Assembly: GCA_003599365.1 (NCBI GenBank)
Contig: QZJR01000098.1
Location: forward strand, 1 to 44,137
Direction of reading: 5' to 3'
DNA from: Deltaproteobacteria bacterium
GTDB lineage: Bacteria > Desulfobacterota > UBA8473
DNA: 44,137 nucleotides
The notes under the pieces are model-generated. The model was given only the letters and a program-made list of their open reading frames with translations, did not search any database and had not been told where the DNA came from. This document shows positions 3,845 to 39,726 of this stretch, piece by piece (positions within the stretch are counted from its first letter, which is position 1; every line of letters begins with the position of its first letter). A program made the position numbers and the translations under genes.

Positions 3845-3863
3845 TTCTTTAACTCTAAAATTC

Positions 3864-5083
<1,220 letters not shown>

Positions 5084-7901: not shown

Positions 7902-8005
7902 GTAACTACTTAGGTAGGCACAAAGTAGGAAAAAACAACGAAACGACCCTGTTCCGCTCTGCTTTGTGTCTATGTGCCTTTGCTACTTTGTGCCTGAGTA
8001 GTTAC
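7902..8005. repeat. type B hairpin element bounded by GTAACTACTTAGG / CCTGAGTAGTTAC
   Basis: Inner arms ggcacaaagtagg ... gctactttgtgcc pair with each other. The ctttgtg(t/c)c...tgtgcctttgc(t/c)actttgtgcct core recurs at 26631-26666 and 29513-29558. The element ends 3 nt from the cheZ stop. Confidence 0.9.
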
Positions 8006-8007
8006 CA

Positions 8008-8745
8008 TTAGAACCAAAATTCCTTCAAAAGGTCATCCACACCCGACTGGGAAATCAATTCGCTTTCTGTCCTTTCTATCTTTGTACCTTGTTCTATCTT
8101 CAGACCAAATGTTGTTATCAACCTTACAAGTTCTTCCTCTATGTCTCCCACAAGTTTAATGACTTTTTTTATTGTCTGACCTGTAAGATCCTGAAAGGAT
8201 TGCGTCATGAGTATCCCGGTCAAATCGTTTTCAAGCTTATTCTTAAACTCCTTCAGATAATCCACTGAACTTTCCGGCCCTTCTATATTTCTTATATGTG
8301 AGGCAAGGTCATCCATGTTTAATATATATTTTTCCACCGTCTCCATCGTCTTATTGGCAGCTTCTTCTGTCTCATCAATAACAAGTTGGAGCTTGTCAAT
8401 GACATTGGGCATCTCAACCGTGGCTATCTCTTTGAATCTCGGGTCAATTGCCTCTTTAAATCCATTAATAGCGTTATGTAATTTTCTTGTAATCTTGCCG
8501 ACCTCCTTAAAGAGGTCATCCTGTCCTTTTTTCATCATGCTATGTACAGCACTATTCGCTTTTTCATAATCCTGACTTACAAGGGCATCCATGAAGCTGA
8601 TTATCTCCTCCAATATCCCATGCCTCTGGTCCTGAGAATCTATCCCCATCTCTTCGAAAAATCCCTTGAGGTTATACAGATCATCCACCCTTTCCTCTCC
8701 TACTATAGTGTTAACGGCACTGATAAGTCCTGAGTTGTCTTTCAT
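8008..8745 (-). CDS. cheZ: CheY-P phosphatase CheZ
   Basis: 245 aa. The catalytic-region motif SFQDLTGQTIKKVIKLV matches the CheZ DFQDLTGQVIKR signature. The C-terminal peptide SGVDDLLKEFWF resembles the CheY-binding tail QVDDLLDSLGF. Confidence 0.85.
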   Translation of the reverse strand: MKDNSGLISAVNTIVGEERVDDLYNLKGFFEEMGIDSQDQRHGILEEIISFMDALVSQDYEKANSAVHSMMKKGQDDLFKEVGKITRKLHNAINGFKEAIDPRFKEIATVEMPNVIDKLQLVIDETEEAANKTMETVEKYILNMDDLASHIRNIEGPESSVDYLKEFKNKLENDLTGILMTQSFQDLTGQTIKKVIKLVGDIEEELVRLITTFGLKIEQGTKIERTESELISQSGVDDLLKEFWF

Positions 8746-12033: not shown

Positions 12034-14056
12034 ATCTCAACACCCCCGTGGTAGATAGTTTTACTGATGGAGATATCTCTGCATTGGAAAGAATGACCAG
12101 CGACGGAATGAATCTCTCTATGATTTTTCTGAGAAATCTCCTCGCCTGCGTGGAGCAAAGAATAATTGGCTGGGAACCTTTAAACCTACCTTCTGTGATG
12201 GCGGTCTCTATTGCCCTCATCAACTTATTTACAACTTCAGGGCTTATTGCACCTCCGGCTTCCACGGCATGAGAAATCGCCCTTTCAAACTCCGGATCCA
12301 GGGTTATAGCATAGATATTCCCGTCAGGAGAGATATACTGTTTGGTTATATACCTCGAAAGGGACTGCCTCACATATTCTGTGAGCAACTCCGTATCCTT
12401 GGTGGAAGGTGCCCAATCAATAAGGGTCTCAAATATGGTAACAAGGTCATTTATCGGCACCTTTTCCCTCAAAAGATTCTGAAGTACCCTTTGAACACCG
12501 CCTAATGTTAAAAGAGACGGAATAAGCTCATCAACAATTTTTGGATAGTTTTTCAAGAGATTGTCCAATAAACTCTGGACTTCTGCCCTTGTGAGAAGCT
12601 CCCACGCATGAGTTTTTATTAGTTCAGTCAGATGTGTAGTAATCACTGTCGGAGGGTCAATAACCATATAGCCCTTTGTTTGAGCTTTATCCATATCTTT
12701 ATCACTGATCCAGAAGGCTGGAAGTCCAAATGCCGGTTCCTTTGTAGGTATCCCTTCTATCTCTTCTGCTTCTCCTGATGCGACAGCAAGGCAGTGACCG
12801 ATCATAACCTCACCCCTTGCAATCTCAATACCCCGTATGAGTAAACTATATTCATGCGGCCTGATCTGGAGGTTATCCTTTATATGTATTGAAGGCGCAA
12901 TAAAACCAAGCTCAGAGGCAAGTTGTCTCCTCATTGCCTTTATTTTGTTAAGAAGGTCTACCTTCCCGCCCTCTAGAAGAGGAATTAAGCCATAGCCTAT
13001 CTCGAAGGTAAGCGGTTCTATCTCTATGACAGTATCTATAGCGGGTTCTTGGGCCATTGGCTTGATTTCCTGTTCTTTTTCGACCTCAACTGCATTCTTT
13101 GAAAGGACATATGCCAGGGCTCCTGATATAGTCGCAAGAAGCAAGAAAGAAATGTGTGGAAGCCCAGGTACAAGGCCGAGAACAACCATTACCCCCGATG
13201 TAGTACCCAGTGCTTTCGGATTTATTAATAGCTGTCTGGTTATATCTTTCCCAATATCTGTATCTGTTCCGGCACGGCTAACAACAATGCCCGCAGCAGT
13301 AGAAATGAGCAGTGCAGGGATTTGTGAAACAAGGCCATCACCAATGGTCAATATAGTATAAGTCTTTGCAGCTTCTAAAAGGGGCATACCCTCCTGCAGC
13401 GTACCTATTATGAAACCGCCGATAATATTTATACCCGTTATTATTAACCCTGCGATGGCATCACCTCTGACAAATTTACTGGCCCCATCCATTGCCCCGT
13501 AGAAATCAGCCTCTTGAGAAACGACTTTCCTCCTTCTCCTTGCCTCTGATTCATCGAGGAGCCCGGCATTAAGGTCTGCATCTATAGCCATCTGCTTACC
13601 CGGCATTGCATCAAGAGTGAATCTTGCAGCAACTTCCGCTATCCTGCCTGATCCCTTTGTTATGACCACAAAATTTACAATCACCAGGATCAGAAAGACT
13701 ACAAAACCAACCGCATAGTTTCCACCTACAACGAAATTCCCGAATGACTTTATCACTTCCCCTGCAGCATCCATACCTTCATTCCCTCTGAGCAGTATCA
13801 ACCTGGTGGACGCAATATTCAATGCGAGCCTGTAGAGTGTTGTTATGAGAAGCATTGAAGGAAATACAGAGAAATCCAGAGGCTTTTTAATATATATGCC
13901 GGTTACGAGTATAATTATTGACAGGGATATAGAGAATGACAGAAGGATATCCAGTACAAAAGGTGGGACAGGCAGTATCATCACGCCCAAAATAGAGACT
14001 ACGCTTACGGCAACAAAGACACCCCCTCTTTTTTGTATCAGTTCGAGAAAGTTCAT
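12023..14056 (-). CDS. flhA: flagellar export apparatus protein FlhA
   Basis: 677 aa. Polytopic N-terminal domain with the conserved FHIPEP-type segment (EVAARFTLDAMPGKQMAIDADLNAG) and a large cytoplasmic C-terminal domain. Confidence 0.96.
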   Translation of the reverse strand: MNFLELIQKRGGVFVAVSVVSILGVMILPVPPFVLDILLSFSISLSIIILVTGIYIKKPLDFSVFPSMLLITTLYRLALNIASTRLILLRGNEGMDAAGEVIKSFGNFVVGGNYAVGFVVFLILVIVNFVVITKGSGRIAEVAARFTLDAMPGKQMAIDADLNAGLLDESEARRRRKVVSQEADFYGAMDGASKFVRGDAIAGLIITGINIIGGFIIGTLQEGMPLLEAAKTYTILTIGDGLVSQIPALLISTAAGIVVSRAGTDTDIGKDITRQLLINPKALGTTSGVMVVLGLVPGLPHISFLLLATISGALAYVLSKNAVEVEKEQEIKPMAQEPAIDTVIEIEPLTFEIGYGLIPLLEGGKVDLLNKIKAMRRQLASELGFIAPSIHIKDNLQIRPHEYSLLIRGIEIARGEVMIGHCLAVASGEAEEIEGIPTKEPAFGLPAFWISDKDMDKAQTKGYMVIDPPTVITTHLTELIKTHAWELLTRAEVQSLLDNLLKNYPKIVDELIPSLLTLGGVQRVLQNLLREKVPINDLVTIFETLIDWAPSTKDTELLTEYVRQSLSRYITKQYISPDGNIYAITLDPEFERAISHAVEAGGAISPEVVNKLMRAIETAITEGRFKGSQPIILCSTQARRFLRKIIERFIPSLVILSNAEISPSVKLSTTGVLRYED

Positions 14057-15129
14057 ACCTGTCCTCTGCTTATAAAGCTCAAAGGTGAAAGCTTTGAGCT
14101 TTCAGCTTTCAGCTTATATATATACGCCAGTATCCTGGCCACGGCCCTGTAAAGTTCCTCGGGTATATATGAGTTAATTTTAAGCTTGTAGAGAGCCCTG
14201 GCCAATAGTTTGTCCTCAACAACAGGAATATGGTGTTTTCTTGCAATCTCTTTGATCTTTTCAGCTATGAATCCTGAACCTTTTGCAATAACCTCAGGCG
14301 CTGACATCTCGTCTCTCTTATATCTCAGGGCAACAACAATATGTGTCGGGTTTGTTATGACCACCGTTGCCTTTGGAACTTCCTGCATCATTCGTTTCCT
14401 TGCCATCTCCCTCTGAAGGCTCTTTATCCTCGATTTGATTAACGGCTCACCCTCTGACTCCTTATACTCTTCCTTTATCTCCTGTTTGGTCATTCTTATG
14501 GAACGCTCAAATCTCCATCTTTCATAGAGATAATCCATAATTGCGATGATAAAGAAAATGACTAAAGCAGATAACACAGCTTTAGATATAAGCCTGCCTG
14601 ATATTTCCTGAAGACCCCTGATATCCATGCCAGCTGTGAAGGGAAGGATAGGTATAAGCTTCTTAATGATGTAGTAGAACATGAATCCGCCCACAACAAA
14701 CTTTAAAAAGCTCTTGAGGAAATTCACAAGACCAGATATGGAAAACAACTGCTTAAGTCCGTTTAGAGGGTTTAGCTTTTCAATCTCGAATTTCAAAGGT
14801 TTGAGAATGATCCCTCCCTGCAATACCCCTGCAATTATAGCGAATATTGCTGCAGTTCCTAAAAATGGCATTAATGTCCAGAGCATTTTGTATGAAGCTG
14901 CTTTCATAACAGTAATCGGGTTTTGCCCGTATTGGAGTCCCAGGAGTTTCCCTGTTTCTACCATCATATTTTTTAGGAAACTATCCCCTGCAAAATAAAA
15001 CATGAGCAGGATTCCTGCCGTACCGGCTATTGATGTGAGTTCACGGCTCCTGGCAGCCTGACCTTTTTCCCTGGCCTTCTGTCGCTTTCGCGGCGTTGCC
15101 TTCTCTATCTTTTCATGTCCTTCAGGCAT
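14053..15129 (-). CDS. flhB: flagellar export switch protein FlhB
   Basis: 358 aa. N-terminus EKATPRKRQKAREKGQ, four TM segments, and the NPTH autocleavage site (VVITNPTHIVVAL). The stop overlaps the flhA start (ATGA). Confidence 0.95.
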   Translation of the reverse strand: MPEGHEKIEKATPRKRQKAREKGQAARSRELTSIAGTAGILLMFYFAGDSFLKNMMVETGKLLGLQYGQNPITVMKAASYKMLWTLMPFLGTAAIFAIIAGVLQGGIILKPLKFEIEKLNPLNGLKQLFSISGLVNFLKSFLKFVVGGFMFYYIIKKLIPILPFTAGMDIRGLQEISGRLISKAVLSALVIFFIIAIMDYLYERWRFERSIRMTKQEIKEEYKESEGEPLIKSRIKSLQREMARKRMMQEVPKATVVITNPTHIVVALRYKRDEMSAPEVIAKGSGFIAEKIKEIARKHHIPVVEDKLLARALYKLKINSYIPEELYRAVARILAYIYKLKAESSKLSPLSFISRGQV

Positions 15130-15907: not shown

Positions 15908-15928
15908 TTTAACCTATGAAGAAAAATT

Positions 15929-16152
15929 CTAACTACTCAGGTTCAAAGTTCCAAGGTTCACGGTTCACGGTTGATGCATTCGTAAAAAGTCGAAAAAATC
16001 CCTCTCCCTAACCCTCCCCCGTCAAGGGGGAGGGGATTTCGGACTTTTTACGAGTTCATCAAGGTTAGAGAGCGATGAACACAGACCAGTATGAAGATAA
16101 GGCAACCAACTGTGAACCTTGAACCCTGAACCTGACAACCTAGCGTAGTTAC
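15929..16152. repeat. type A MITE-like element with a nested type E element (15973-16060)
   Basis: Outer ends are CTAACTACTCAGGTTCAAAGTTCCAAGGTTCACGG and CCTAGCGTAGTTAC. The inner element is bounded by gatgcattcgtaaaaagtcg and cggactttttacgagttcatc around a C-rich/G-rich hairpin (ccctctccctaaccctccccc gtcaa gggggaggggatt). The outer sequence on both sides of the insert aligns with the uninterrupted copy at 3864-3993. Confidence 0.9.
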
Positions 16153-25458: not shown

Positions 25459-25509
25459 CACCCCCACCCAAACCCTCCCCCTTGAAGGGGGAGGGTTTGG
25501 GTGGGGGTG
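25459..25509. repeat. perfect 23-bp stem / 5-nt loop hairpin (type E core)
   Basis: cacccccacccaaaccctccccc ttgaa gggggagggtttgggtgggggtg. It is related to the C-rich/G-rich cores at 16001-16037 and 32271-32350. Confidence 0.9.
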
Positions 25510-25558: not shown

Positions 25559-25682
25559 GTAACCGTTAACGGTTCTCAGTTTGCAGTTTACGGTAATTAC
25601 AACAGCAGGCTTAAGCCCGCTGTTATATAAAGCTTGAAGCATTTTTGCCAACTGTTAACTGCAAACCGTGAACTGTGAACGG
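25559..25682. repeat. type C intergenic repeat, full copy
   Basis: gtaaccgttaacgg...gtaattacAACAGCAGGCTTAAGCCCGCTGTTatataaagcttgaagcatttttgccaactgttaactgcaaaccgtgaactgtgaacgg. It is near-identical to 39537-39696 and to the reverse complement of 32807-32937. Confidence 0.92.
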
Positions 25683-25725
25683 ATAACAAATAGCCTGGAG
25701 GAGTAAATGTGGAGAGGTATTCATT

Positions 25726-26586: not shown

Positions 26587-26666
26587 GGATTCAAGGGGTC
26601 AAGGGGTCAAGGATTCGAACGACACGATCCTGCTCTGCTTTGTGCCTTTGCCACTTTGTGCCTGAC
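26587..26666. repeat. type B-related repeat with tcaagggg octamer pair
   Basis: ggattcaaggggtcaaggggtcaaggattcg ... ctgctttgtgcctttgccactttgtgcct. Confidence 0.85.
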
Positions 26667-29485: not shown

Positions 29486-29558
29486 GGTAACCGTTCACTG
29501 TGAACGGTTACCTGCTTTGTGCCTATGTGCCTTTGCCACTTTGTGCCTAAGTAGTTAC
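29486..29558. repeat. 27-bp palindrome (29486-29512) plus type B repeat ending in CCTAAGTAGTTAC
   Basis: ggtaaccgttcac t gtgaacggttacc, followed by tgctttgtgcctatgtgcctttgccactttgtgcctaagtagttac. Lies between two convergent operon ends. Confidence 0.9.
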
Positions 29559-29569
29559 GTTTACTATAA

Positions 29570-30859
29570 TTATCTCTTCAGATTCACAAGTTCCTGCATC
29601 AGTTCATCAGTTGTAGTTATTACCCTCGAATTTGCCTGAAATCCCCTTTGTGCAGAAATCATCTTCACAAATTCTTCTGCGAGGTCAACATTGCTGAGCT
29701 CAAGGTTATTCGAAAGAATTCTGCCAAGACCTGATGTGCCTGCCTTACCAACAATTGGTATGCCTGAATCAAAGGACTCTGCATAAAGGTTTCTCCCGAG
29801 CTTTGTCAAGCTTGCCGGTGCAACAAATCTTGCCGGTGCAATCTGTCCTATTCCCCTTGTCTGGCCATTGGTGAAGGCCCCTGTTATTATCCCCTCCTCT
29901 GAAATAGCCATGTTCTTCAAAGACCCGGATGAATAACCATTCTGACTTATGTTCATAACGGTAAAATCCGATGCAAACTGCGTTGTGCCATCAAATCCAT
30001 CACCAACCGGAGTTTCACCCGTACCTGTTCCGTAGTTAAACTCTATAGTCTGCGGAGTGGTTACGGAAGCCCCAAAATTGAAATTTATTGCTGTTCCGCT
30101 GTTGTCGTTAATAAGCGCACCACCTGTATTGAATGTTAGGGATTGGGTGCCGGCATCAACAAGCAATGAAGAATCAGCAGGGTCCTGATGAACATAATGG
30201 ACATCCCATGCGTTATCGCCGGTCTTAATAAAATATAATGTTACCTGATGAGCTCCCCCCTGAGAGTCGTATACGGAAATAGTTGTAGAAGAATTATAAT
30301 TAGCAGGATCGTTATCGACGGTATCCCCATTTCCATCCAATGTAAAAGCAGCAGATGGAACAGCAGCAGATGCCTTTAAATTTACTGCGATGTCCGAACT
30401 GCTTGTTATATTGGCCGGGCTTTGCCTGCTTGTTATCTGCAAATTGCCTATGGTTCCGGTTATATTTCCAGATGCATCGGCGAGATACCCCTGAAGGGCC
30501 AAACCATCGGGATTTACAATATTTCCGTCTTTGTTAAGGGAAAACTGGCCGGCTCGAGTGTAATGTCTTGTACCGTCTTCGCTAACAATAAAGAACCCGT
30601 CTCCATCAATAGCAAGGTCAAGGGCACTTGCCGTAGTCTCAAATGATCCCTGTGTAAAGACAGGTGATGTCTCGCTTATAAACACTCCACGACCTACCTG
30701 TAATGAACCACCAACAATGCCGCTCAATACATCCCCAAAAGATATCCTGCTTCCCTTAAACCCTACGGTATTCATGTTCGCAATATTGTCTCCGATAACG
30801 GAAAGGGATGTACCATTTGCATTCATACCACTTATTGCCGCAAAAAGTGATGTTAACAT
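29570..30859 (-). CDS. flgE: flagellar hook protein FlgE
   Basis: 429 aa. N-terminus LFAAISGMNANGTSLSVIGDNIANMNTVGFK and C-terminus LELSNVDLAEEFVKMISAQRGFQANSRVITTTDELMQELVNL are typical of hook and rod family proteins. Confidence 0.93.
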   Translation of the reverse strand: MLTSLFAAISGMNANGTSLSVIGDNIANMNTVGFKGSRISFGDVLSGIVGGSLQVGRGVFISETSPVFTQGSFETTASALDLAIDGDGFFIVSEDGTRHYTRAGQFSLNKDGNIVNPDGLALQGYLADASGNITGTIGNLQITSRQSPANITSSSDIAVNLKASAAVPSAAFTLDGNGDTVDNDPANYNSSTTISVYDSQGGAHQVTLYFIKTGDNAWDVHYVHQDPADSSLLVDAGTQSLTFNTGGALINDNSGTAINFNFGASVTTPQTIEFNYGTGTGETPVGDGFDGTTQFASDFTVMNISQNGYSSGSLKNMAISEEGIITGAFTNGQTRGIGQIAPARFVAPASLTKLGRNLYAESFDSGIPIVGKAGTSGLGRILSNNLELSNVDLAEEFVKMISAQRGFQANSRVITTTDELMQELVNLKR

Positions 30860-30872
30860 CTACTGTCTCCTT

Positions 30873-31241
30873 TCAAATATTTCCGTATAGTTCTTTAATT
30901 TCCCCAAGGGGGAACTTCTTGCCATTGTCCAATACAAGATAGGTAATGCTATTTTCAAAATTAACCCCGGCAACCTTTCCTGTGCTGCCATCCTGTGTCG
31001 TAACGTTCCTTCCCATGAGATTTATGGCCATGCTGTTGTTAAGTGAGCTTTGATATGTAAGCAGCTCTTCAATCTTTTTATTCATGTTGAATAACTGCTC
31101 GAGAGAACTGAACTGTGCAAGTTGTGCTGTAAATTCCGCACCTTGCACAGGGTTAAGTGGATCCTGGTACCTTAGTTGAGAGGTAAAAAGCTTCAGAAAA
31201 TCATCCTTTCCTAATGTCTTTCCAACAGTTGAAATGTCCAT
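30873..31241 (-). CDS. flgD: flagellar hook assembly (cap) protein FlgD
   Basis: The start is moved to the ATG at 31241 (MDISTVGKTLGKDDFLKLFTSQLRYQDPLNP), preceded by GGAGG. The longer ORF-track start lies in a repeat. Confidence 0.88.
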   Translation of the reverse strand: MDISTVGKTLGKDDFLKLFTSQLRYQDPLNPVQGAEFTAQLAQFSSLEQLFNMNKKIEELLTYQSSLNNSMAINLMGRNVTTQDGSTGKVAGVNFENSITYLVLDNGKKFPLGEIKELYGNI

Positions 31242-31258
31242 ATCTTTCCTCCTTTTCC

Positions 31259-31370
31259 GACTTAGGTTCAAAGTTCCGGGGTTCACGGTTCAACGGTTTA
31301 AGATAATTATTAAGCATTTCACTCAAACCTCTGAACCCGTGAACCTTGAACCCTAAACCTGAATAGTTAC
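31259..31370. repeat. type A hairpin element (left end truncated), right end CCTGAATAGTTAC
   Basis: cttaggttcaaagttccggggttcacggttcaacgg ... cccgtgaaccttgaaccctaaacctgaatagttac. Confidence 0.88.
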
Positions 31371-31387
31371 GAATTTTCTCACGCGAT

Positions 31388-32722
31388 TTAGACAAAAATA
31401 CTTACTCCTTTCATATCCCAATAAGAAATCGGTAATTGTATTTCTTTCCTTGAGTGTGGTGCTTCTGAATCTTCTTCCCCGACATTATCCTCTGCTTCAT
31501 TTCTTTTATCTTTAAGGGACACTGAAAAACTTCCTACGTTGAGTCCTTCATTATTAAGTGTATTCAGGATATTATGGAGATTGTTGACAATCAATTCCTT
31601 CCCGATGGTATCTGATACATTTATATGTGCATTGATCATACCTTTGTCCAGGGTTAGCTCGATATGGAGCTTTCCCAGACTCTTGGTTCCGAGGAAAACA
31701 TCTATCGAGGCATCATCTTTTTTCGTTATAATGAACGCATTCCCAGGAATGTAGGTAGATTCCGGCGATTCTTTTATAGGTTGAGCAAATTTGACATTAT
31801 TCGAGTTAGCGGTGTTATCAAAATTTGGGAATATGTTCCCCGGTTTTATGTCGATCTCTGCTGTATGTGAACCGGCATCTTTCCCTTTGCCTGCTGCCGG
31901 CTGTTCAAGCGCTGTGAATTTGTCTAATTCAAATAAGACCTCGCTTACAGGTGATTTTAATGTCTGAAAATCTTTTATAATAGAAAAATTATTTGGAATA
32001 TCTATTTCACTGCCGAGTGTATACAGGGTGTTGTGGAGATTATTGACAATCGAATCTTTGCCCATGGCCTCCGGCGCTTTTATCTGTGCATTGATCATAC
32101 CTTTGTCCGGGGCTAGCTCGATATGGAGCTTTCCCAGACTCTTGGTTCCGAGGAAAACATCTATCGAGGCATTATCTTTTTTCGTTATAATGAACGCATT
32201 CTCAGGAATGTAGGTAGATTCCGGCGATTCTTTTATAGGTTGAACAAATTTGATAGACTCGTAAAAAGTCCAATCTCCCCTCCCCTTGTGGGAGGGGATG
32301 AAGGGGAGGGCACCCTCACCCCAACCCTCTCCCATCGAGGGAGAGGGATTTTTTCGACTTTTTACAACTTCATCAAATTTGACATCATTCGAATCAGCAG
32401 CGTTATCAAAATTTGGGAAAATGTTCCCCTGTTTTATGCCGATCTCTGCTGTACATGAACCGGCATCCTTCCCTTTGCCCGCTGTTGGCTGTCCTGCTGT
32501 TTCAGGCAGACTGCTGCCCTCCGCTGATATATCCTGATCTCCTGACTGGAACGTTGAAATGGATAAAATAGATGTATTGCCCTGTAATAAGTTTAATATG
32601 GCGGCCATCAGGCAATCAAAAGACTCGCTGTTGGATTGCGCCATATCCGGTTTGACACTTTGAACTGCCAATGACTTTATCCCACCGGTTATTTTAGACT
32701 CTATTGGCATTAAGATATCCAT
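31388..32722 (-). CDS. fliK: flagellar hook-length control protein FliK-like, with tandemly duplicated C-terminal domain
   Basis: 444 aa, in the fliK position (fliJ-ylxF-fliK-flgD-flgE). The C-terminal Flg_hook-like segment (LGKLHIELTLDKGMINAHINVSDTIGKELIVNNLHNILNTLNNEGLNVGSFSV) is present twice. Confidence 0.75.
   Translation of the reverse strand: MDILMPIESKITGGIKSLAVQSVKPDMAQSNSESFDCLMAAILNLLQGNTSILSISTFQSGDQDISAEGSSLPETAGQPTAGKGKDAGSCTAEIGIKQGNIFPNFDNAADSNDVKFDEVVKSRKNPSPSMGEGWGEGALPFIPSHKGRGDWTFYESIKFVQPIKESPESTYIPENAFIITKKDNASIDVFLGTKSLGKLHIELAPDKGMINAQIKAPEAMGKDSIVNNLHNTLYTLGSEIDIPNNFSIIKDFQTLKSPVSEVLFELDKFTALEQPAAGKGKDAGSHTAEIDIKPGNIFPNFDNTANSNNVKFAQPIKESPESTYIPGNAFIITKKDDASIDVFLGTKSLGKLHIELTLDKGMINAHINVSDTIGKELIVNNLHNILNTLNNEGLNVGSFSVSLKDKRNEAEDNVGEEDSEAPHSRKEIQLPISYWDMKGVSIFV
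32254..32374. repeat. type E MITE-like element inserted in frame in fliK
   Basis: Ends gatagactcgtaaaaagtcc and cgactttttacaacttcatc form an inverted repeat. The core is C-rich/G-rich hairpins. AAATTTGA flanks it on both sides (32246-32253 and 32375-32382). Confidence 0.88.
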
Positions 32723-32736
32723 ATTGTTAATTAACT

Positions 32737-32752
32737 ATCAATAAGTATGCCA
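32737..32752 (-). promoter_or_regulatory. candidate sigma-54 (-24/-12) promoter upstream of fliK
   Basis: The minus strand reads TGGCAT-ACTTA-TTGAT. The predicted start site lies only about 4 nt before the annotated ATG at 32722, which weakens either this call or the chosen start codon. Confidence 0.3.
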
Positions 32753-32806
32753 GGTAATCTACTAATAACCAAATTCCCAGCAACGATAATCAAGCAGTCT
32801 TCGTAT

Positions 32807-32937
32807 CCGTTCACAGTTCACGGTTTGCAGTTAACAGTTGGCAAAAATGCTTCAAGCTTATATAACAGCAAGCTTAAGCTTGCTGTTATAATGCCTGCTG
32901 TTGTAATTGCCGTAAACTGAGAACCGTTAACGGTTAC
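32807..32937. repeat. type C intergenic repeat, reverse orientation, with a perfect 24-bp palindrome (32864-32887)
   Basis: ccgttcacagttcacggtttgcagttaacagttggcaaaaatgcttcaagcttatatAACAGCAAGCTTAAGCTTGCTGTTata...gtaattgccgtaaactgagaaccgttaacggttac. Confidence 0.92.
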
Positions 32938-33037
32938 CGGTCTTCTTAATGAGCTATTATCGGGGGGACAAAGTTCCGAAAGGTTCTTGCATGTTTACAA
33001 GATGGGACGTTAAAAAGTATTTTGCAGTGAAAATATT

Positions 33038-33541
33038 TCATTTGGTAGGAAATTTTTTCTCAAAATTTATCATGCCCTCGGTTACAGATACGACCTTTTT
33101 TCTATCCATATATGCCATCACGGCGCCAACCTTTTTGGGCTTCATCTTGAGGATAATCTTTACTGCCGTAGGTTGATTAATAGCGGAGAGCGCTGCCGCC
33201 GCCTCTTCCGGCGGCATTGATTCATATGATTTAACCAAACGGTCAAGTTTTTCGTTACTAATTTGCTCTACCTTCCCGAGTACATCTTTGAACCGGTCTA
33301 AAAGCTTCGTATATTTCTGTATCCTCTCATCAACATCCTTTCTAATGGCATTAAGTCTTTCTTCCTCCTTTTTAAGGGTTGCCTCTTTCTCTTTAATCTC
33401 TTTGTGCCTCTTATTTATGAACTTTACCATGTCGTCCTGGGCATGAACAAAACCGGTGAAAAGTGAATAATGTACAGTGAGCAATAAAAAGACAATGAGA
33501 AACAAAAAAAATTTCTTATTAACCGTGAACCGTTTTTTCAT
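33038..33541 (-). CDS. MotE / YlxF-like flagellar protein (MgtE_N-like C-terminus)
   Basis: 167 aa. N-terminal TM or signal sequence, a coiled coil, then PPEEAAAALSAINQPTAVKIILKMKPKKVGAVMAYM. Occupies the ylxF position between fliJ and fliK, as in Bacillus-type fla operons. Confidence 0.65.
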   Translation of the reverse strand: MKKRFTVNKKFFLFLIVFLLLTVHYSLFTGFVHAQDDMVKFINKRHKEIKEKEATLKKEEERLNAIRKDVDERIQKYTKLLDRFKDVLGKVEQISNEKLDRLVKSYESMPPEEAAAALSAINQPTAVKIILKMKPKKVGAVMAYMDRKKVVSVTEGMINFEKKFPTK

Positions 33542-33978
33542 TTCCTCGATTTCCTCGAAAGAAAGTTAAAATCTATCTCTTTCTGCTCGCCAAGTAATGC
33601 CTCCTTTGCTTCCTTATTAAGAATCTTATCATTGAGGATTTCAAAGAGTCGGGTTTCTTTATACGCCTCCAACATAGCCTCTTGTTTCGCTTGAAGCTCT
33701 GAGAGCTGCCTAAGAACAACCTCTCTTTGCTCTTCTATCTGCTTGCCTATATACGAAAAATAGTCGTAAAAAAGCTCTATTTCTCGAATATTTGAGGATC
33801 CATTACCCTGCATGCTGTTAAATTCCACAACAGTATTTTTAAATACGCCTTCGAGAGAATCGAGCCTTGACTTCTCTACACCAAGTTTATCTTTGGTTTT
33901 CTTGACCTCAACCTCGATTTGTTCTTTTGTGAACCCCTTTAATTCCAATACCTTTGATACCATCATTTGTCGGGTCAT
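33538..33978 (-). CDS. fliJ: flagellar export chaperone FliJ
   Basis: 146 aa, all-helical coiled coil, immediately downstream of fliI. Start and stop overlap the neighbouring genes. Confidence 0.8.
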   Translation of the reverse strand: MTRQMMVSKVLELKGFTKEQIEVEVKKTKDKLGVEKSRLDSLEGVFKNTVVEFNSMQGNGSSNIREIELFYDYFSYIGKQIEEQREVVLRQLSELQAKQEAMLEAYKETRLFEILNDKILNKEAKEALLGEQKEIDFNFLSRKSRK

Positions 33979-35306
33979 TTCTCAGTTCCCATCTCATCAA
34001 ATATAAGATACAGTGCATGGAGACTATCCGCGATGTCCCGCCTTTCATTCATGTCCTGTCTAAGGTACATCTTAAGTCTGTCAATCATCCCGAGGGCATA
34101 ATCCACTTTTGGATTCGACCCCTCTTTGTAAGCACCTAGATTAATCATATCCTCAAATCTTTTATATATGGCTAGGGCCTCAATAAATTTAGATGAATAC
34201 TCTCTGTGTCTTGAATCCACTATATCCGGCATCACCCTGCTTATACTCCTTAAGAGATCTATCGAGGGGTAATGATTTTCCATTGCCAGTTCTCTGGACA
34301 AAACAATATGTCCATCAAGGACAGCAATCGCAGCATCTGCCACAGGGTCTGACAGGTCATCTCCGTCTACAAGGACTGTGTATATGCCTGTAATGCTCCC
34401 GCTGCCCTCCGATGTGCCAACCCGTTCGAGCAACTTTGGTAAGAGTGCAAAAACGGATGGTGTGTATCCTTTAGATGTTGGAGGCTCTCCTACAGCAAGC
34501 CCTATTTCACGCTGTGCTTGAGCAACACGGGTAAGGGAATCCATCAGGAGAAGTACATTCTCTCCTCTGTTCCTGAAATACTCTGCAATGGCTGTTGCAG
34601 CTAAGGCACCCCTCACCTTTGCGAGGGGCGGCTGGTCTGAGGTTGATACAACAACAATGGATTTTCCCATTCCCTCCTCTCCGAGGTCTTTTTCTATGAA
34701 TTCCCTGACCTCCCTTCCCCTTTCACCTATCAGTGCAATGACATTCACCGATGCCTCTGTGTATCTTGCCATCATCCCGAGCAGGACGCTCTTACCCACA
34801 CCAGCTCCGGACATAATACCTATCCTCTGTCCCTTCCCGCATGTGAGAAGTCCATTAATCGCCCTTATGCCAAGGTCTATGGGCTCTGATATCCTGTGTC
34901 TTCTCAAAGGATTAGGTGTCGAGGAAAACAGAGAATAGTTAACCCCTCTCAGAGGTCCCTTTCCATCTATAGGTTCACCCCTGTCATTAATGACCCTCCC
35001 CATCAGGGATGGCGAAACCTTCACAAAGATATTATTGCCAATAGGGATAACCCTGCTTCCCGGTCCTATGCCCGTGAGGTCGCCAACAGCCATAAGCAGT
35101 ACCTTCTCATCCCCGAAACCCACGACTTCTGCATCTATAGGACAATCAGTCCCTGACAATATCTTACATGATTCACCTATGCTCGTTTTAATACCTGTTG
35201 CCTTGATAATGATCCCCGTAATCTCCACCACTCTGCCGTATACTTTTAAGGGTTCTGTTTCCAGAGCTGCTTTTATATAAGGGGATAGATCAATCGCTGG
35301 AGTCAT
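33975..35306 (-). CDS. fliI: flagellum-specific ATPase FliI
   Basis: 443 aa. Walker A GAGVGKS, Walker B LLLMDSLTR, and F1/T3SS ATPase-like sequence throughout. Confidence 0.96.
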   Translation of the reverse strand: MTPAIDLSPYIKAALETEPLKVYGRVVEITGIIIKATGIKTSIGESCKILSGTDCPIDAEVVGFGDEKVLLMAVGDLTGIGPGSRVIPIGNNIFVKVSPSLMGRVINDRGEPIDGKGPLRGVNYSLFSSTPNPLRRHRISEPIDLGIRAINGLLTCGKGQRIGIMSGAGVGKSVLLGMMARYTEASVNVIALIGERGREVREFIEKDLGEEGMGKSIVVVSTSDQPPLAKVRGALAATAIAEYFRNRGENVLLLMDSLTRVAQAQREIGLAVGEPPTSKGYTPSVFALLPKLLERVGTSEGSGSITGIYTVLVDGDDLSDPVADAAIAVLDGHIVLSRELAMENHYPSIDLLRSISRVMPDIVDSRHREYSSKFIEALAIYKRFEDMINLGAYKEGSNPKVDYALGMIDRLKMYLRQDMNERRDIADSLHALYLIFDEMGTEK

Positions 35307-35926
35307 TGAACAAGCCTGTCCCCCATCTCCTTGATTAAATTTTTCAATTGCTCATCCACATCGGTCGGTACATCTTCCACAGGACCCCTTACCACAGATC
35401 CATAGAGAGAGGCGGCAGTATCTACATCAAAGACAATGTCAGGATGGAGACTGAGGATTTCAGGTTTATGCTTCATAAAAAGATCATAAAGAGAGGGATT
35501 TATCTTTATGGTAATCTGTCCTGTCCTTTCCATTCTCGTTATCGCCTCTTTTGTTATCTCCACAATCTCATCAGGATTCATTGTCAACTCTTTTAAGATA
35601 ATCTTCCTTGCCATGGTGACAGCAAGCTCCACGAATTGAGGCTCAAGCTCCTTTATCAAGGTTTCCCTGAGAGTTGTTAACTCTTTAATTATTGCTTCTA
35701 CCTTTTCTACTAAAACTATGGCCTTTTGTTCACCCATGGCAAATCCTGACTTCTCTCCTGCTTCAAACCCCTTCTCATATGCCTCCCTCTCTATGTTTTC
35801 AGTATTCTGAGCAATAGGCAGGTGTTCCTCCTCTGCCCTTCTGACAATCTTATTCAGTAAAGGCATCTCAAAGGGGATAATGTCCTTATCTTGCATAAAC
35901 CGATTCTTATGCCACAATTCCTTCAT
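35303..35926 (-). CDS. fliH: flagellar assembly protein FliH
   Basis: 207 aa. Helical N-terminus (EREAYEKGFEAGEKSGFAMGEQK) and FliH C-terminal domain. The start could instead be the ATG at 35896. Confidence 0.85.
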   Translation of the reverse strand: MKELWHKNRFMQDKDIIPFEMPLLNKIVRRAEEEHLPIAQNTENIEREAYEKGFEAGEKSGFAMGEQKAIVLVEKVEAIIKELTTLRETLIKELEPQFVELAVTMARKIILKELTMNPDEIVEITKEAITRMERTGQITIKINPSLYDLFMKHKPEILSLHPDIVFDVDTAASLYGSVVRGPVEDVPTDVDEQLKNLIKEMGDRLVQ

Positions 35927-36890
35927 CGCCTCTCCCTGTGAGAATAATCTTGCCTTCTGCCTCTAACTTTCTTGCAATTTTAACTATATCTTGCTGTGCC
36001 TTCTCTACTTCAGATACCCTGACCGGCCCCTTCACCTGAATCTCTTCTTTGAGTATCTGCGCTGCTCTTTGAGACATATTCTTGAATATCTTTTCCTTCA
36101 ATGATTCAGAGGCTGTCTTCAGTGCCAGGGAAAGTTTTTCTGTGTTTACCTCCTTCAGCATCATCTGAATTCCCCTGTCATCCACATTAGCAATATCATC
36201 AAATACAAACATGAATTGTCTGATGGAGTCTGCAAGTATCTCGTCTCTCTCTTCAATATCCCCAAGAACTTTATGTTCGGTTGTCCTGTCACAGTGATTC
36301 AGTATCTCAGCAATCATTCTTGTGCCGCCGAGTTTCTTACCCTTGCCCTTACCTATATCCAGCTGTCCCTTGAGGACCTCATTGAGCTCTTCGAGCGCGC
36401 TTTCAGTGACCCTTTCGCTTGTGGCTATCCTCATGGCTACGTCAGCCTTTAACTTCTCAGGAAGGGAAGATAGCACCTCGGCTGCATGTCCCGGTTCAAG
36501 CAGAGAGACAATAAGTGAAATGGTCTGGGGATGCTCTGATAAAAGAAAGTTCGATAGTGTCTTAGAATCGACCCACTTGAGTGAATCTAAAGGGCCCTCC
36601 TTTGATGCCATCTCCAGTATCTTTGTTGCCCCATCTTCTCCAAGTCCCATTGAAAGGATCTTCTTTACAAATTCCTCTCCGCCTATATGTAAGTCACCTC
36701 TGTCAATCATATCTGAAGCCTCTTTCATCACATTATCAATTGTGGTCGTGTTGACGGTCTTCAGTCTCGCCATGTGCATAGTGATCTTACCTATCTCTCT
36801 GATATTAAGGTCCTTCAACGCCTCTGCTGCGGCCTCCTCGCCTACGCAGCTAAGAAATATAGCTGCCTTTTCATATCCATTCAAAGGCAT
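35907..36890 (-). CDS. fliG: flagellar motor switch protein FliG
   Basis: 327 aa. N-terminus GYEKAAIFLSCVGEEAAAE, middle EHPQTISLIV, and C-terminal torque helix region (MSQRAAQILKEEI). Confidence 0.95.
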   Translation of the reverse strand: MPLNGYEKAAIFLSCVGEEAAAEALKDLNIREIGKITMHMARLKTVNTTTIDNVMKEASDMIDRGDLHIGGEEFVKKILSMGLGEDGATKILEMASKEGPLDSLKWVDSKTLSNFLLSEHPQTISLIVSLLEPGHAAEVLSSLPEKLKADVAMRIATSERVTESALEELNEVLKGQLDIGKGKGKKLGGTRMIAEILNHCDRTTEHKVLGDIEERDEILADSIRQFMFVFDDIANVDDRGIQMMLKEVNTEKLSLALKTASESLKEKIFKNMSQRAAQILKEEIQVKGPVRVSEVEKAQQDIVKIARKLEAEGKIILTGRGDEGIVA

Positions 36891-38423
36891 TTATTCCTCC
36901 TCTATCCAGTTTTTTATCAGATTAGTAGCATCTTTTGGATTTTTCTTTGCCCATTCAATTACCTGGATCTTTGCAGGCTTTGCCGGCACCTCCAATCTCT
37001 TCTCTATTTCTGCTGTTGTCTGGGGCAGTTGCAAGGAGGGTTGTTGAGCGAGAGGTACCCCGGTGAGTGCCTTTACCAGTGGTCTAACTACAAAGAGAAA
37101 CAACAAAACCACTGCTAAAAGTGGGACAATGTATTTTGTGACAGTAATAATAATAGGTATAATTTCAGTTTTAGGTTCAAGCAAGTCCTCCTGAGGGGCA
37201 ACCTCAAAGGGCATATTTACCACCCTTACCTCGTCACCTCTGTCTGGCAGAAAACCAATCGACTTCTTCACCATCTCCTCAAACTGTTTAATATCTTCTT
37301 CGGAACGAGAAGTATACTTCTTTTCCTTTGAGCCCTGTTGGGGAATATATGTGCCATCAATAAGAACGACTGCAGAAAGCCTTTTTACCTCTCCTGAAGA
37401 GTTTATGATACGGCTTGTTACCTTGCTTATCTCATAATTTATAGCCTCGTTTTTCTTCTCCATCTGTCCCTGTTGTGATCCCATTTGTGGTGCCGTCTTT
37501 CCCGGAAGGTTAGATGAAATACCGGGGACACCGCCGATAATCCCGGTTATTGACTTTTCAACGTTTTTCTGCTCGCTTCTTACAACCTGACTATCAGGAT
37601 CAAACTTCTCTTCTGTTTTCTCGATCTTTGTAAAGTCAATAACAGCAGTAACCTTTGCCTTTACGTGACCTTTGCCTACAACAGGTTGGAGGATGCCCGT
37701 GATCCTGTTTTCCATATCCTTTTCATAATTACGCTGGTAATCTAACTGATCATTTGTCATTCCGATGGTTTCACCTGTACCGGATGTAAGCATTTCGCCA
37801 TGGCTGTCAACTATTGCTACATCCTTTGGATTCAGACCATTAACACTGCTTGACACAAGATGCACCATCCCCTGGACCTGCCCCTGAGAGAGCCTCCTCC
37901 CCTGTCTCAACTTTACAAGAACGGATGCCTTTGGCCTTTCCTCCGACTGCGTAAATAAAGATTTTTCAGGAATAGCAAGATGCACTCTGCACTGTTCCAC
38001 CTCCGAAAGTGATCTTATGGTTCTTGAAAGCTCACCCTGGAGTGCCCTTTTGTAATTTAATTTTTGAACAAATTCCGTCATCGTCAAGTTTGTTTCATCA
38101 AAAACTTCAAAACCGACACCTCCCCCCTGAGGAAGTCCCTGACTCGCAAGTTGGATCCTTAGCTCATACACCCTATTGGATGGGACCATTATTCCACCCC
38201 CGGATGTTTTATAAGGGGTCTTTTGCTCCTTCAGCTTCTGGATAATCAGGCCTGCATCTTCCTCACCCAGATTAGAATAAAGAAGTTGATAATCCTCCTT
38301 CTGTATCCATGCAAACAGAAGGACGACAGAGGCTATAGCAATGGCAAGAACAGCCAGGATCATCACCTTATTTTTTGCAGGCATAGCCTTTATCTGCTCG
38401 GTTATGTTAGCAATGTTCACCAT
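36891..38423 (-). CDS. fliF: flagellar MS-ring protein FliF
   Basis: 510 aa. N-terminal TM, the YscJ/FliF family periplasmic region (LYSNLGEEDAGLIIQKLKEQKTPYK), and a C-terminal TM. Confidence 0.95.
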   Translation of the reverse strand: MVNIANITEQIKAMPAKNKVMILAVLAIAIASVVLLFAWIQKEDYQLLYSNLGEEDAGLIIQKLKEQKTPYKTSGGGIMVPSNRVYELRIQLASQGLPQGGGVGFEVFDETNLTMTEFVQKLNYKRALQGELSRTIRSLSEVEQCRVHLAIPEKSLFTQSEERPKASVLVKLRQGRRLSQGQVQGMVHLVSSSVNGLNPKDVAIVDSHGEMLTSGTGETIGMTNDQLDYQRNYEKDMENRITGILQPVVGKGHVKAKVTAVIDFTKIEKTEEKFDPDSQVVRSEQKNVEKSITGIIGGVPGISSNLPGKTAPQMGSQQGQMEKKNEAINYEISKVTSRIINSSGEVKRLSAVVLIDGTYIPQQGSKEKKYTSRSEEDIKQFEEMVKKSIGFLPDRGDEVRVVNMPFEVAPQEDLLEPKTEIIPIIITVTKYIVPLLAVVLLFLFVVRPLVKALTGVPLAQQPSLQLPQTTAEIEKRLEVPAKPAKIQVIEWAKKNPKDATNLIKNWIEEE

Positions 38424-39536: not shown

Positions 39537-39696
39537 GTAACCGTTCACGGTTCTCAGCCTGCCCTGGCGCGAGCGCTGCGGTCTGGGCCAGGGTTTACAG
39601 TTCACGGTAATTACAACAGCAGGCTTAAGCCCGCTGTTATATAAAGCTTGAAGCATTTTTGCCAACTGTTAACTGCAAACCGTAAACTGTGAACGG
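39537..39696. repeat. type C intergenic repeat with a 36-nt GC-rich insertion (39558-39593) and a 24-bp palindrome (39615-39638)
   Basis: Aligns with 25559-25682 except for the inserted cctgccctggcgcgagcgctgcggtctgggccaggg. Confidence 0.92.
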
Positions 39697-39726
39697 ATAC
39701 GTTATTTGTTATCACCCTGCATTTTT

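What the first reader, a model, noticed from the sequence alone, without database searches (positions are those of the whole stretch)
31559..32491. Tandem in-frame duplication of the FliK C-terminal (substrate-switch) domain
Nucleotides 31559-31903 and 32018-32491 are near-identical copies offset by 459 nt (153 codons).

Each copy encodes AGKGKDAGS.TAEI.IK.GNIFPNFDN...QPIKESPESTYIP.NAFIITKKD.ASIDVFLGTKSLGKLHIEL..DKGMINA.I......GK..IVNNLHN.L.TL. This is the Flg_hook-like domain that in FliK triggers the FlhB specificity switch.

The high nucleotide identity implies a recent event. A FliK with two switch domains would be unusual. It could alter hook-length control, or it may be an assembly collapse or expansion artefact.
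Basis: seen in the sequence. Interest (0 to 1): 0.65.

Follow-up and report, generated by a model that had tools for sequence, protein, structure and literature searches.

The report
Old FliK domain duplication, MITE-interrupted
The flagellar hook-length gene fliK of this uncultured Desulfobacterales-like bacterium really does carry a second, partial copy of its own C-terminal switch domain, but the copy is old and decaying, was recently patched by gene conversion, and is interrupted in frame by a small mobile element, so it is an evolutionary curiosity, not a protein with two working switches.

Summary
The repeat is real. It appears in five assemblies from at least four samples, so it is not an assembly artefact. 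fliK (32722..31388, minus strand, 444 aa) holds copy A (aa 81-236) and copy B (aa 277-389).

1. Copy A carries a 125-nt MITE-like element (32251-32375). It has inverted termini and AATT flanks, and is read in frame as 43 extra residues. A second copy lies between fliR and fliQ, and relatives occur in MAGs of several phyla.
2. The duplication is old. Two related lineages have it without the element. The near-identity comes from a roughly 132-nt B-to-A gene-conversion tract (97.7% identical; 14 of 14 diagnostic sites are B-type) that starts at the element.
3. Copy A is not a second intact switch domain. It scores 15 bits against Pfam Flg_hook, below the 29.8 cut-off, while copy B scores 43. It lacks the last beta-strand and the C-terminal tail, evolves under relaxed constraint, and is half replaced in the closest relative.

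Among the 150 best of 422 relatives (E <= 0.001) in 1.84 billion representative proteins, only this clade has the duplication.

Most likely copy A and the element-encoded peptide act as ruler or spacer, and copy B alone switches FlhB. It is a new variant of a known kind, of moderate interest.

The parts
31388..32722 (-). fliK coding sequence, 444 aa (an alternative start gives 440 aa). It lies between the fliJ/167-aa gene and flgD-flgE.
   Evidence: ORF list. Pfam Flg_hook 54.9 bits with 2 stretches; the neighbours are FlgD, FlgE and FliJ. L004 has the same gene order.
31556..31894 (-). Copy B of the repeat unit (aa 277-389, AGKGKDAGSH...NILNTL). Together with the next 19 residues it forms the bona fide Flg_hook domain (Pfam match aa 340-408 = window 31499-31705).
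   Evidence: copy B alone scores 43 bits, matching profile positions 15-83 of 85. AlphaFold pLDDT is 77-93 for aa ~320-410. Orthologue dN/dS is 0.05-0.34.
32015..32482 (-). Copy A of the repeat unit (aa 81-236, including the 43-aa insert). It is a degenerate, truncated paralogue of the switch domain.
   Evidence: 15.4 bits, below the cut-off, matching profile positions 10-58 only; relaxed constraint; the core folds only when given homologue alignment depth, and has no final beta-strand; its tail is unrelated to the tail of copy B.
32251..32375 (.). 125-nt MITE-like element inside copy A. Its termini are TGATAGACTCGTAAAAAGTC... and ...GACTTTTTACAACTTCATCA, with three GC-rich hairpins between them. 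It is read in frame as DEVVKSRKNPSPSMGEGWGEGALPFIPSHKGRGDWTFYESIKF (aa 117-159). It is flanked by AATT at 32247-32250 and 32376-32379, so the net insertion is 129 nt.
   Evidence: Alignment of the two copies. Inverted repeat I1. Absent from copy B and from L003 and L004. Second copy at 15972-16061. Family members in other MAGs. RNA fold of -76.9 kcal/mol, z = -7.8. Only 2 of 6 frames are open.
32114..32245 (-). Gene-conversion tract in copy A (aa 160-203, VQPIKESPE...GKLHIEL). It was overwritten with copy-B sequence (donor region 31655-31786) and starts at the element's insertion site.
   Evidence: 97.7% identical to the window's own copy B and 92-94% to the B orthologues, but 77% to the A orthologues; 14 of 14 diagnostic sites are B-type; Fisher seg2 vs seg3 p = 3.6e-7, against p = 0.65 for the same comparison in L003.
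31895..32014 (-). 40-aa linker between copies A and B (GSEIDIPNNFSIIKDFQTLKSPVSEVLFELDKFTALEQPA). It is not part of the repeat, and its NNFSIIKDFQTLK motif is shared with the central spacer of the single-domain outgroup P0007.
   Evidence: seg4 A-B identity is 44%; z = 4.2, 1 of 500 shuffles..
31388..31555 (-). The last beta-strand of the domain plus the C-terminal tail (aa 390-444, NNEGLNVGSFSVSLKD...PISYWDMKGVSIFV). It is present only after copy B and is nearly invariant among relatives.
15972..16061 (.). Second, shorter (90-nt) copy of the same element, intergenic between fliR and fliQ.
   Evidence: (I6, I12).
14053..15129 (-). flhB, encoding the export-gate partner of the FliK switch domain, present in the same window.
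   Evidence: Pfam Bac_export_2, 396.8 bits.

Best explanation
fliK here encodes a hook-length ruler and switch protein. Its central spacer was built, in an ancestor of at least three lineages, by copying about 113 codons of its own C-terminal region into the middle of the gene. That stretch covers the pre-domain stretch plus the first two thirds of the Flg_hook/T3S4 domain.

Only the downstream copy B kept the last beta-strand and the conserved C-terminal tail, and only B remains under purifying selection. It is inferred to be the part that contacts FlhB and flips export specificity.

The upstream copy A is drifting. It falls below the Pfam threshold, its second half has been replaced in the closest relative, and in the window's lineage a 125-nt MITE-like element inserted into it. 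The element sits in the one sense-strand frame that has no stop codon, with its terminator-like hairpin antisense to the gene, about 10 residues ahead of the first beta-strand.

On the same short branch, roughly 132 nt of copy A next to the element were overwritten by copy B through gene conversion.

[quoted passage not shown] They add 196 residues. Without the element, the region upstream of the terminal unit is as long (219-229 aa) as the unrelated spacers of the single-domain outgroups (225-263 aa).
For: Anatomy.

Reality of the structure: five assemblies carry it.

Age of the duplication:
- Both relatives have it.
- Flanking genes place the window next to L004, with L003 outside. The A-type segment 2 shared by L003 and L004 is therefore ancestral.

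Conversion: per-segment identities, 14 of 14 B-type diagnostic sites, and Fisher p = 3.6e-7.

Decay of copy A:
- Pfam scores of 15.4, 13.6 and no hit for the three A copies, against 43 bits for copy B.
- dN/dS.
- The tail of copy A is unrelated to the tail of copy B.
- AlphaFold models.

Element:
- Inverted termini, an empty site in copy B and in the orthologues, and a second copy in the window.
- Full-length (~155-nt) relatives in Thermodesulfovibrionia, Deltaproteobacteria, Pirellulales and Desulfobacteraceae MAGs, plus a 90-nt relative in a WOR-3 MAG.
- The same frame is read at the N-termini of the unrelated proteins P0004 and P0005.
- Its terminator-like hairpin is antisense to fliK.

Spacer length is conserved across clade and outgroups.

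Experimental precedent: all 14 motile pseudorevertants of a linker-deleted Salmonella FliK arose by an intragenic duplication that inserted 100 residues ahead of the FliK_C core and restored switching. In that system, linker and N-terminal insertions or deletions change hook length (PMC6972891).
Against: - No experiment or expression data bear on function.
- After the conversion, copy A carries an intact copy of the most conserved strands (FIITKKD.ASIDVFLGTKSLGKLHIEL). Given homologue alignment depth, AlphaFold folds its core at pLDDT 73-87, so some FlhB-binding capacity cannot be excluded.
- The dN/dS estimates rest on few substitutions (2 synonymous, 17 nonsynonymous).
- The low AlphaFold confidence for copy A in the full-length model may only reflect shallow alignment depth.
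- The 4-bp target-site duplication fits only 5 of the 8 element copies examined, and no parent insertion sequence was found.
- Only three lineages are available, so the order of the insertion and the conversion is unknown.
Confidence: 0.7

Rival explanations
1. FliK has two working switch domains. Both A and B can engage FlhB, and gene conversion is the mechanism that keeps A functional. This would give the secreted ruler two chances to flip the export gate, or two length set-points.
For: - The conversion restored the conserved beta-strand region of copy A.
- The core of copy A is predicted to fold as five strands plus two helices when homologues are aligned to it.
- The insert lies outside that core and keeps the frame.
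- L004 also shows a local A/B conversion in segment 1.
Against: - Copy A is below the Pfam threshold in all three lineages.
- It lacks the last beta-strand and the conserved C-terminal tail.
- Half of copy A is replaced in L004/P0003, which keeps an otherwise intact flagellar cluster.
- Its unconverted part accumulates nonsynonymous changes, 17 against 2 synonymous.
- The prediction is biased by the homologue alignment.
Confidence: 0.12
2. fliK is on its way to becoming a pseudogene. The element insertion and the scrambled middle of the protein have inactivated hook-length control in this population, and the open frame persists only by chance.
For: - A mobile element sits inside the gene.
- FliK is by far the most divergent protein of the cluster: 63% identity to L004, against 87-97% for its neighbours.
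- The window is full of small dispersed repeats.
Against: - The frame is open through 444 codons in all five assemblies.
- The insert is a multiple of three and sits in the only sense frame without stops. That has about a one-in-three chance given insertion in either orientation and any codon phase.
- Copy B and the tail are under strong purifying selection and almost invariant.
- All other flagellar genes in the window are intact.
- The divergence is confined to the ruler part, which is poorly conserved in FliK generally (stated from general knowledge).
Confidence: 0.1
3. One reading: a recent tandem duplication, or an assembly artefact.
For: There is 97.7% identity over 132 nt. Repeats can mislead short-read assemblers.
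Against: - Five assemblies from at least four samples agree, and three of them have slightly different SNP haplotypes.
- The copies differ at 10-14% of positions overall and by a 129-nt insert, so they would not be collapsed or expanded.
- Two diverged lineages share the architecture.
- Outside the conversion tract, synonymous divergence (dS) between A and B is about 1, against about 0.2 between B orthologues.
Confidence: 0.03

Closest known systems
Salmonella FliK (N-terminal ruler, flexible linker, C-terminal T3S4/Flg_hook switch domain; PDB 2RRL)
   Same: - A Pfam Flg_hook domain near the C-terminus, followed by a conserved tail.
- The gene sits next to flgD-flgE, with flhB in the same cluster.
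- The N-terminal and central part is poorly conserved, while the C-terminal domain is conserved.
- 2RRL is the only PDB hit of the family profile, although a marginal one (E = 0.07).
   Different: The central spacer is made of a partial copy of the protein's own switch domain plus a mobile-element-encoded peptide. Sequence similarity to Salmonella FliK is very low.
Laboratory FliK(delta2-99 + delta206-265SP) pseudorevertants of Salmonella (Kinoshita et al. 2020, PMC6972891)
   Same: A spontaneous intragenic duplication inserts about 100 residues of FliK's own sequence just ahead of the FliK_C core. It is tolerated, and it improves switching by restoring spacer length.
   Different: - The laboratory duplication copies ruler and linker residues (111-270), not the switch domain.
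- It arose under selection in a crippled allele.
- The natural case here is old, fixed in a clade, partly decayed and homogenised by conversion.
Rickettsia palindromic elements (RPEs) and other intragenic MITEs such as ERIC, BOX and Coxiella QMITE1 (review PMC10969869; PMC5896051)
   Same: A palindromic mobile element of roughly 100-150 bp inserted inside a protein-coding gene, in frame, adding a peptide without destroying the host protein. The element family has an intrinsically open frame.
   Different: - No sequence relationship to RPEs was tested or is claimed.
- The host is a Desulfobacterales-like bacterium.
- Among the 8 complete copies examined, the fliK insertion is the only mid-gene one.
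- The insertion lies in a redundant paralogous domain copy.
Repeat-containing injectisome ruler YscP (Yersinia), whose internal duplications lengthen the ruler and the needle (own knowledge; Journet et al. 2003 is cited in PMC6972891)
   Same: A type III secretion ruler protein whose length is changed by internal sequence duplication upstream of a C-terminal T3S4 domain.
   Different: YscP repeats are short ruler-region repeats, not copies of the T3S4 domain itself. It belongs to a different secretion system. This comparison was not tested here.

Membership tests
FliK / Flg_hook (PF02120) hook-length control protein | Flg_hook domain scoring above the Pfam gathering threshold | tested here: met
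   The whole protein scores 54.9 bits and copy B alone 43 bits, against a cut-off of 29.8. Copy A alone scores 15.4 bits and does not meet it.
FliK / Flg_hook (PF02120) hook-length control protein | Flagellar gene context (fliJ ... fliK-flgD-flgE) with FlhB encoded in the genome | tested here: met
   FliI, FliJ, FlgD and FlgE flank the gene. FlhB, FlhA and FliPQR lie at 12-17 kb in the window. L004 has the same order.
FliK / Flg_hook (PF02120) hook-length control protein | Alpha/beta T3S4 fold of the C-terminal domain | tested here: inconclusive
   Copy B is modelled confidently as strands followed by two helices and a final strand (pLDDT 77-93). Foldseek with the full, mostly disordered model gave no significant PDB match. 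The profile hit to 2RRL is marginal, at E = 0.07.
FliK / Flg_hook (PF02120) hook-length control protein | Secreted during hook assembly, sets hook length, switches FlhB specificity | not testable with these tools
   Needs genetics, electron microscopy and secretion assays in a cultured relative or a heterologous host.
[quoted passage not shown] | Small size, no coding capacity for a transposase, terminal inverted repeats | tested here: met
   The element is 125 nt. Its arms are 29 nt and 83% complementary (I1). The same termini occur in the 90-nt copy at 15972-16061 and in the ~155-nt copies in other MAGs.
[quoted passage not shown] | Precise presence/absence polymorphism (filled vs empty site) | tested here: met
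   Copy B and all four copies in L003 and L004 have the uninterrupted GTCAAATTTG site. The window's copy A has the same site with 129 extra nt.
[quoted passage not shown] | Target-site duplication of fixed length | tested here: inconclusive
   AATT flanks the fliK copy. A direct repeat of 4-5 bp fits 5 of the 8 copies examined and fails in 3. The element termini resemble the target, which blurs the boundary.
[quoted passage not shown] | Multiple dispersed copies in the same genome and a related autonomous insertion sequence | tested here: inconclusive
   There are two copies plus one core-like palindrome in the 44 kb available, and five contigs with copies in one Deltaproteobacteria MAG. The rest of this genome could not be examined, and no parent insertion sequence was looked for or found.
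Rickettsia palindromic elements (RPE) | Sequence membership in one of the described RPE families | not tested
   Only the behaviour (in-frame residence in a gene) is compared; see PMC10969869. No Rfam family matched the window at the gathering threshold.

The most novel reading that the evidence does not exclude
Transposition of the element and the gene conversion are mechanistically linked. A break made by insertion (or attempted excision) of the MITE in copy A was repaired using the paralogous copy B 459 nt away as template. The mobile element would then have triggered re-homogenisation of a decaying domain copy and handed FliK a second, partly restored FlhB-contact surface. This would be a natural case of a MITE driving concerted evolution and possible re-functionalisation inside one gene.
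Probability: 0.15. Interest if true: 0.6.

Novelty: new variant of a known kind. Interest (0 to 1): 0.4.

Why it matters
FliK is the textbook molecular ruler. Its length sets hook length, and its C-terminal domain flips the export gate. Here is a natural FliK whose ruler is made from a decayed copy of its own switch domain, and which in one lineage is a further 43 residues longer because of a mobile element.

This amounts to a ready-made allelic series: the window, L003 and L004, plus single-domain outgroups. With it one could test whether folded or semi-folded inserts count toward ruler length, and whether a second FlhB-contact surface matters.

It also documents three general processes inside one 1.3-kb gene: domain duplication, gene conversion between intragenic paralogues, and in-frame MITE exaptation or tolerance outside Rickettsia-type genomes.

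On the practical side, high local identity between repeats is not evidence of a recent duplication, and length differences between repeat copies deserve a look for mobile elements.

Tried and rejected
- Assembly artefact: rejected.
- Recent duplication: rejected by the orthologues and per-segment identities.
- Accelerated divergence of copy-A segment 2 in the relatives, instead of conversion in the window: rejected. L004 is the window's sister and L003 the outgroup, so the A-type they share is ancestral. A-B divergence is uniform along the unit in L003 (p = 0.65) but not in the window (p = 3.6e-7).
- Other FliKs flagged with two matched stretches (P0017, P0023, P0136, P0138): not real duplications, with second stretches at iE of about 0.8 or absent.
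- Homology of the post-A linker to the post-B strand and tail: not supported (z = -0.2).
- A relic of copy A in the outgroups P0006 and P0007: no similarity to copy B (z = 0.4 and -0.3). Only the short motif DNFSVIKDFHTLK is shared with the A-B linker (z = 4.2). This remains unresolved.
- Known RNA family in the element: none at Rfam gathering thresholds.
- Sense-strand terminator in the element: none. The strong hairpin plus T-run is antisense to fliK.
- Searches that found nothing:
  - both metagenome-contig scans;
  - the protein search with the 46-aa element peptide;
  - phmmer of copy B against the PDB;
  - Foldseek of the full model, which returned only insignificant metallo-beta-lactamase sheet matches;
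  - the literature search for the assembly accessions.
Full report
OBSERVATION

The window carries a flagellar gene cluster on the minus strand: fliF-G-H-I-J, a 167-aa gene, fliK, flgD and flgE. Further along lie fliL-M-N-O-P-Q-R, flhB, flhA and flhF. fliK is the 444-aa ORF at 32722..31388.

The repeat finder reports two direct-repeat families inside it:
- 31557-31794 vs 32016-32253: 238 nt, 90% identical, offset 459.
- 31772-31904 vs 32360-32492: 133 nt, 86% identical, offset 588.

I call the upstream, N-terminal-proximal unit copy A (aa 81-236) and the downstream unit copy B (aa 277-389). A 40-residue linker that is not repeated lies between them.

THE 129-NT DIFFERENCE IS A MOBILE ELEMENT

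Aligning the two copies shows 129 extra nt in copy A, placed between two copies of TCAAATTTG.
- Inside are inverted termini (29-nt arms, 83% complementary, I1) and three GC-rich hairpins.
- As RNA the segment folds to -76.9 kcal/mol, with z = -7.8 against shuffles.
- With ends TGAT...ATCA, the element is 125 nt (32251-32375) and is flanked by AATT on both sides.
- The uninterrupted site GTCAAATTTG is present in copy B and in all four copies of the two related lineages. This is a precise filled-versus-empty contrast.
- A second, 90-nt copy with the same termini lies between fliR and fliQ at 15972-16061. A related perfect palindrome lies at 25459-25509.

A scan of 185,579 species genomes for one terminus found 12 contigs. 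Copies of about 155 nt, and one of 90 nt, occur in MAGs labelled Thermodesulfovibrionia, Deltaproteobacteria (five contigs of one MAG), WOR-3, Pirellulales and Desulfobacteraceae. These often sit at contig ends, as dispersed repeats do. The fliK copy is a derivative lacking the central ~30 nt.

A direct repeat of 4-5 bp fits 5 of the 8 complete copies, so the length of the target-site duplication is not settled.

Only two of the six frames of the insert lack stop codons. fliK reads the open sense frame, giving DEVVKSRKNPSPSMGEGWGEGALPFIPSHKGRGDWTFYESIKF. The same frame is read at the N-termini of two unrelated predicted proteins, P0004 and P0005. The element's only strong hairpin-plus-T-run is on the plus strand, antisense to fliK. 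No Rfam family matches at the gathering threshold.

NOT AN ARTEFACT

The identical 444-aa product, or a truncated or alternative-start call of it, is encoded on four other contigs:
- L001: identical over 3199 nt.
- L002: 9 SNPs in 2045 nt.
- L017: 3 SNPs. The contig starts with Illumina adapter sequence, which explains the 315-aa call.
- L018, from NCBI MAG GCA_020062895.1: 3 SNPs in 3229 nt.

NOT RECENT

The protein search found only two relatives beyond the window's own cluster:
- P0002 (397 aa, ENA contig L003) has both copies and no insert.
- P0003 (387 aa, 'Desulfobacterales bacterium' GCA_016209225.1, L004) has the first half of copy A, followed by unrelated sequence.

Flanking flagellar proteins are 87-97% identical between the window and L004, but 72-76% identical between the window and L003. 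Nucleotide profiles agree. L004 is therefore the sister lineage and L003 the outgroup.

I aligned the six units codon by codon and compared segments.

Segment 2 (VQPIKESPE...GKLHIEL, 132 nt, starting at the insertion site):
- The window's copy A is 97.7% identical to its own copy B.
- It is 92-94% identical to the B orthologues.
- It is only 77% identical to the A copies of L003 and L004. Those two share their own signature (ESPEVIQI.GNT.VITKKD) and differ from their own B copies by about 23%.

Segments 3 and 4 show the reverse:
- The window's copy A is 87-93% identical to L003's copy A.
- It is 76% and 44% identical to its own copy B.

Diagnostic sites, where the three B orthologues agree with each other, the other A copies agree with each other, and the two groups differ, give this pattern for the window's copy A:
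- Segment 2: B-type at 14 of 14 sites.
- Segment 4: A-type at 41 of 44 sites.

The heterogeneity of A-B divergence along the unit is significant in the window (Fisher p = 3.6e-7) and absent in L003 (p = 0.65).

The parsimonious reading is an old duplication followed by a B-to-A gene conversion in the window's lineage after its split from L004. The left edge of the tract coincides with the element to within about 10 nt. L004 shows a separate stretch of 100% A-B identity in segment 1, so conversion recurs in this gene.

COPY A IS NOT A SECOND INTACT SWITCH DOMAIN

Scanned alone against Pfam:
- Copy B plus tail scores 43 bits (cut-off 29.8) over profile positions 15-83 of 85.
- Copy A scores 15.4 bits over positions 10-58.
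- The A copy of P0002 scores 13.6 bits, and that of P0003 has no hit.

The sequence after copy A has no detectable similarity to the last strand and tail after copy B (z = -0.2).

B orthologues have dN/dS of 0.05-0.34. The unconverted part of copy A has 17 nonsynonymous and 2 synonymous differences between the window and L003. These are small numbers, but the direction is clear.

AlphaFold gives two views:
- With 54 sequences, the full-length model shows only copy B as a confident domain: strands, two helices and a final strand, at pLDDT 77-93. Everything from aa 53 to 257 is below 50.
- When the A segment is modelled alone, with single-domain homologues forced to align to it, its core (aa ~169-239) is predicted as five strands plus two helices at pLDDT 73-87. 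It has no final strand. The element peptide (aa 117-159) is low-confidence and lies upstream of the first strand. This second prediction is biased by the alignment and shows only compatibility with the fold.

HOW UNUSUAL IS IT

A phmmer search of 1.84 billion representative proteins with copy B found 422 relatives at E <= 0.001. Re-scoring the best 150 shows a genuine second copy only in this clade. The nearest outgroups, P0006 and P0007 (49% identical in the domain), are single-domain proteins of 391 and 428 aa.

The region upstream of the terminal unit is 219-229 aa in the clade (276 with the element) and 225-263 aa in the outgroups, although the sequences are unrelated. That is what would be expected if ruler length, not sequence, is under selection.

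P0007 shares the motif DNFSVIKDFHTLK with the A-B linker (z = 4.2). It could be an ancestral spacer motif or a relic of an even older copy. I could not decide between these.

MECHANISM

From established work on Salmonella FliK:
- The N-terminal part measures hook length.
- The linker contributes to the ruler and to efficient FliK_C-FlhB_C interaction.
- The C-terminal domain binds FlhB to switch export.
- Insertions and deletions change hook length.
- Motile suppressors of a linker deletion arose in 14 of 14 cases by an intragenic duplication that added 100 residues ahead of the FliK_C core.
(PMC6972891)

By analogy I infer that copy B plus the tail is the switch, and that copy A plus the element peptide serve as spacer or ruler.

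The following are shown: the anatomy, the age of the duplication, the conversion, the decay of copy A, and the mobility signature of the element. The following are inferred: the division of labour between the copies, and any effect on hook length.

In-frame residence of palindromic mobile elements in genes is known from Rickettsia RPEs and other MITEs (PMC10969869). That part is a new example of a known phenomenon.

VERDICT

Its 'recent, two switch domains, or artefact' reading is replaced by 'old partial domain duplication, relaxed copy, recent gene-conversion patch, in-frame MITE'. It is a new variant of a known kind, of moderate interest (0.4).

Noticed in passing
window 15972-16061: Second, 90-nt copy of the element found in fliK. 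It is intergenic between fliR and fliQ and has the same inverted termini.
   Followed up: yes
window 25459-25509: Perfect GC-rich palindrome with 25-nt arms (CACCCCCACCCAAACCCTCCCCCTT / AAGGGGGAGGGTTTGGGTGGGGGTG). It resembles the hairpin core of the element and lies just 3' of the ORF ending at 25435. It may be a terminator or an element remnant.
   Followed up: partly
window 1549-1610, 25559-25700, 32802-32946, 39593-39701: A family of intergenic repeats of about 60-150 nt, consisting of the palindrome TTATATAACAGC..GCTGTTATA plus AACCGTGAAC-type motifs. Copies are up to 100% identical and occur in both orientations. One sits immediately upstream of fliK.
   Followed up: no
window 3857-4052, 15922-15972, 31247-31297, 31332-31377: Another short dispersed repeat (GGTTCAAAGTTCCAAGGTTCACGGTTCA and its reverse complement). 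It includes an inverted pair in and around the short flgD-fliK spacer. Nearly every intergenic gap in the flagellar cluster holds some repeat.
   Followed up: no
window 7942-8027, 26618-26658, 29512-29580: A third repeat family (CTGCTTTGTGCCTATGTGCCTTTGCCACTTTGTGCC), found in the gaps next to gene ends, including just downstream of flgE.
   Followed up: no
L017 1-60 (JGI Ga0104761_1004532): The public contig begins with about 60 nt of Illumina adapter sequence. This truncates fliK and led to a 315-aa gene call that starts at a Met inside the element.
   Followed up: yes
L004 10001-11164 (Desulfobacterales MAG GCA_016209225.1): In the sister lineage the second half of copy A is replaced by unrelated Ser-rich sequence. 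A separate stretch of segment 1 is 100% identical between its A and B copies, which indicates an independent conversion event.
   Followed up: partly
window 29570-38423 vs L004: FliK is the outlier of the cluster. It is 63% identical between the window and L004, against 87-97% for FlgE, FlgD, FliJ, FliI, FliH, FliG and FliF. The divergence is confined to the N-terminal part and the copy-A part.
   Followed up: yes
P0007 residues ~180-195 vs window FliK aa 243-256: The single-domain outgroup FliK shares DNFSVIKDFHTLK with the A-B linker NNFSIIKDFQTLK (z = 4.2). It is either an ancestral spacer motif or a relic of an older duplicate.
   Followed up: partly
window 32123-32458 (+): A 111-aa antisense ORF runs through the element, because its second open frame lies on the opposite strand. 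It is almost certainly not a gene, but it could attract a spurious gene call.
   Followed up: no
window 3439-3534: Two tandem 48-nt units, 79% identical, lie inside overlapping predicted ORFs.
   Followed up: no
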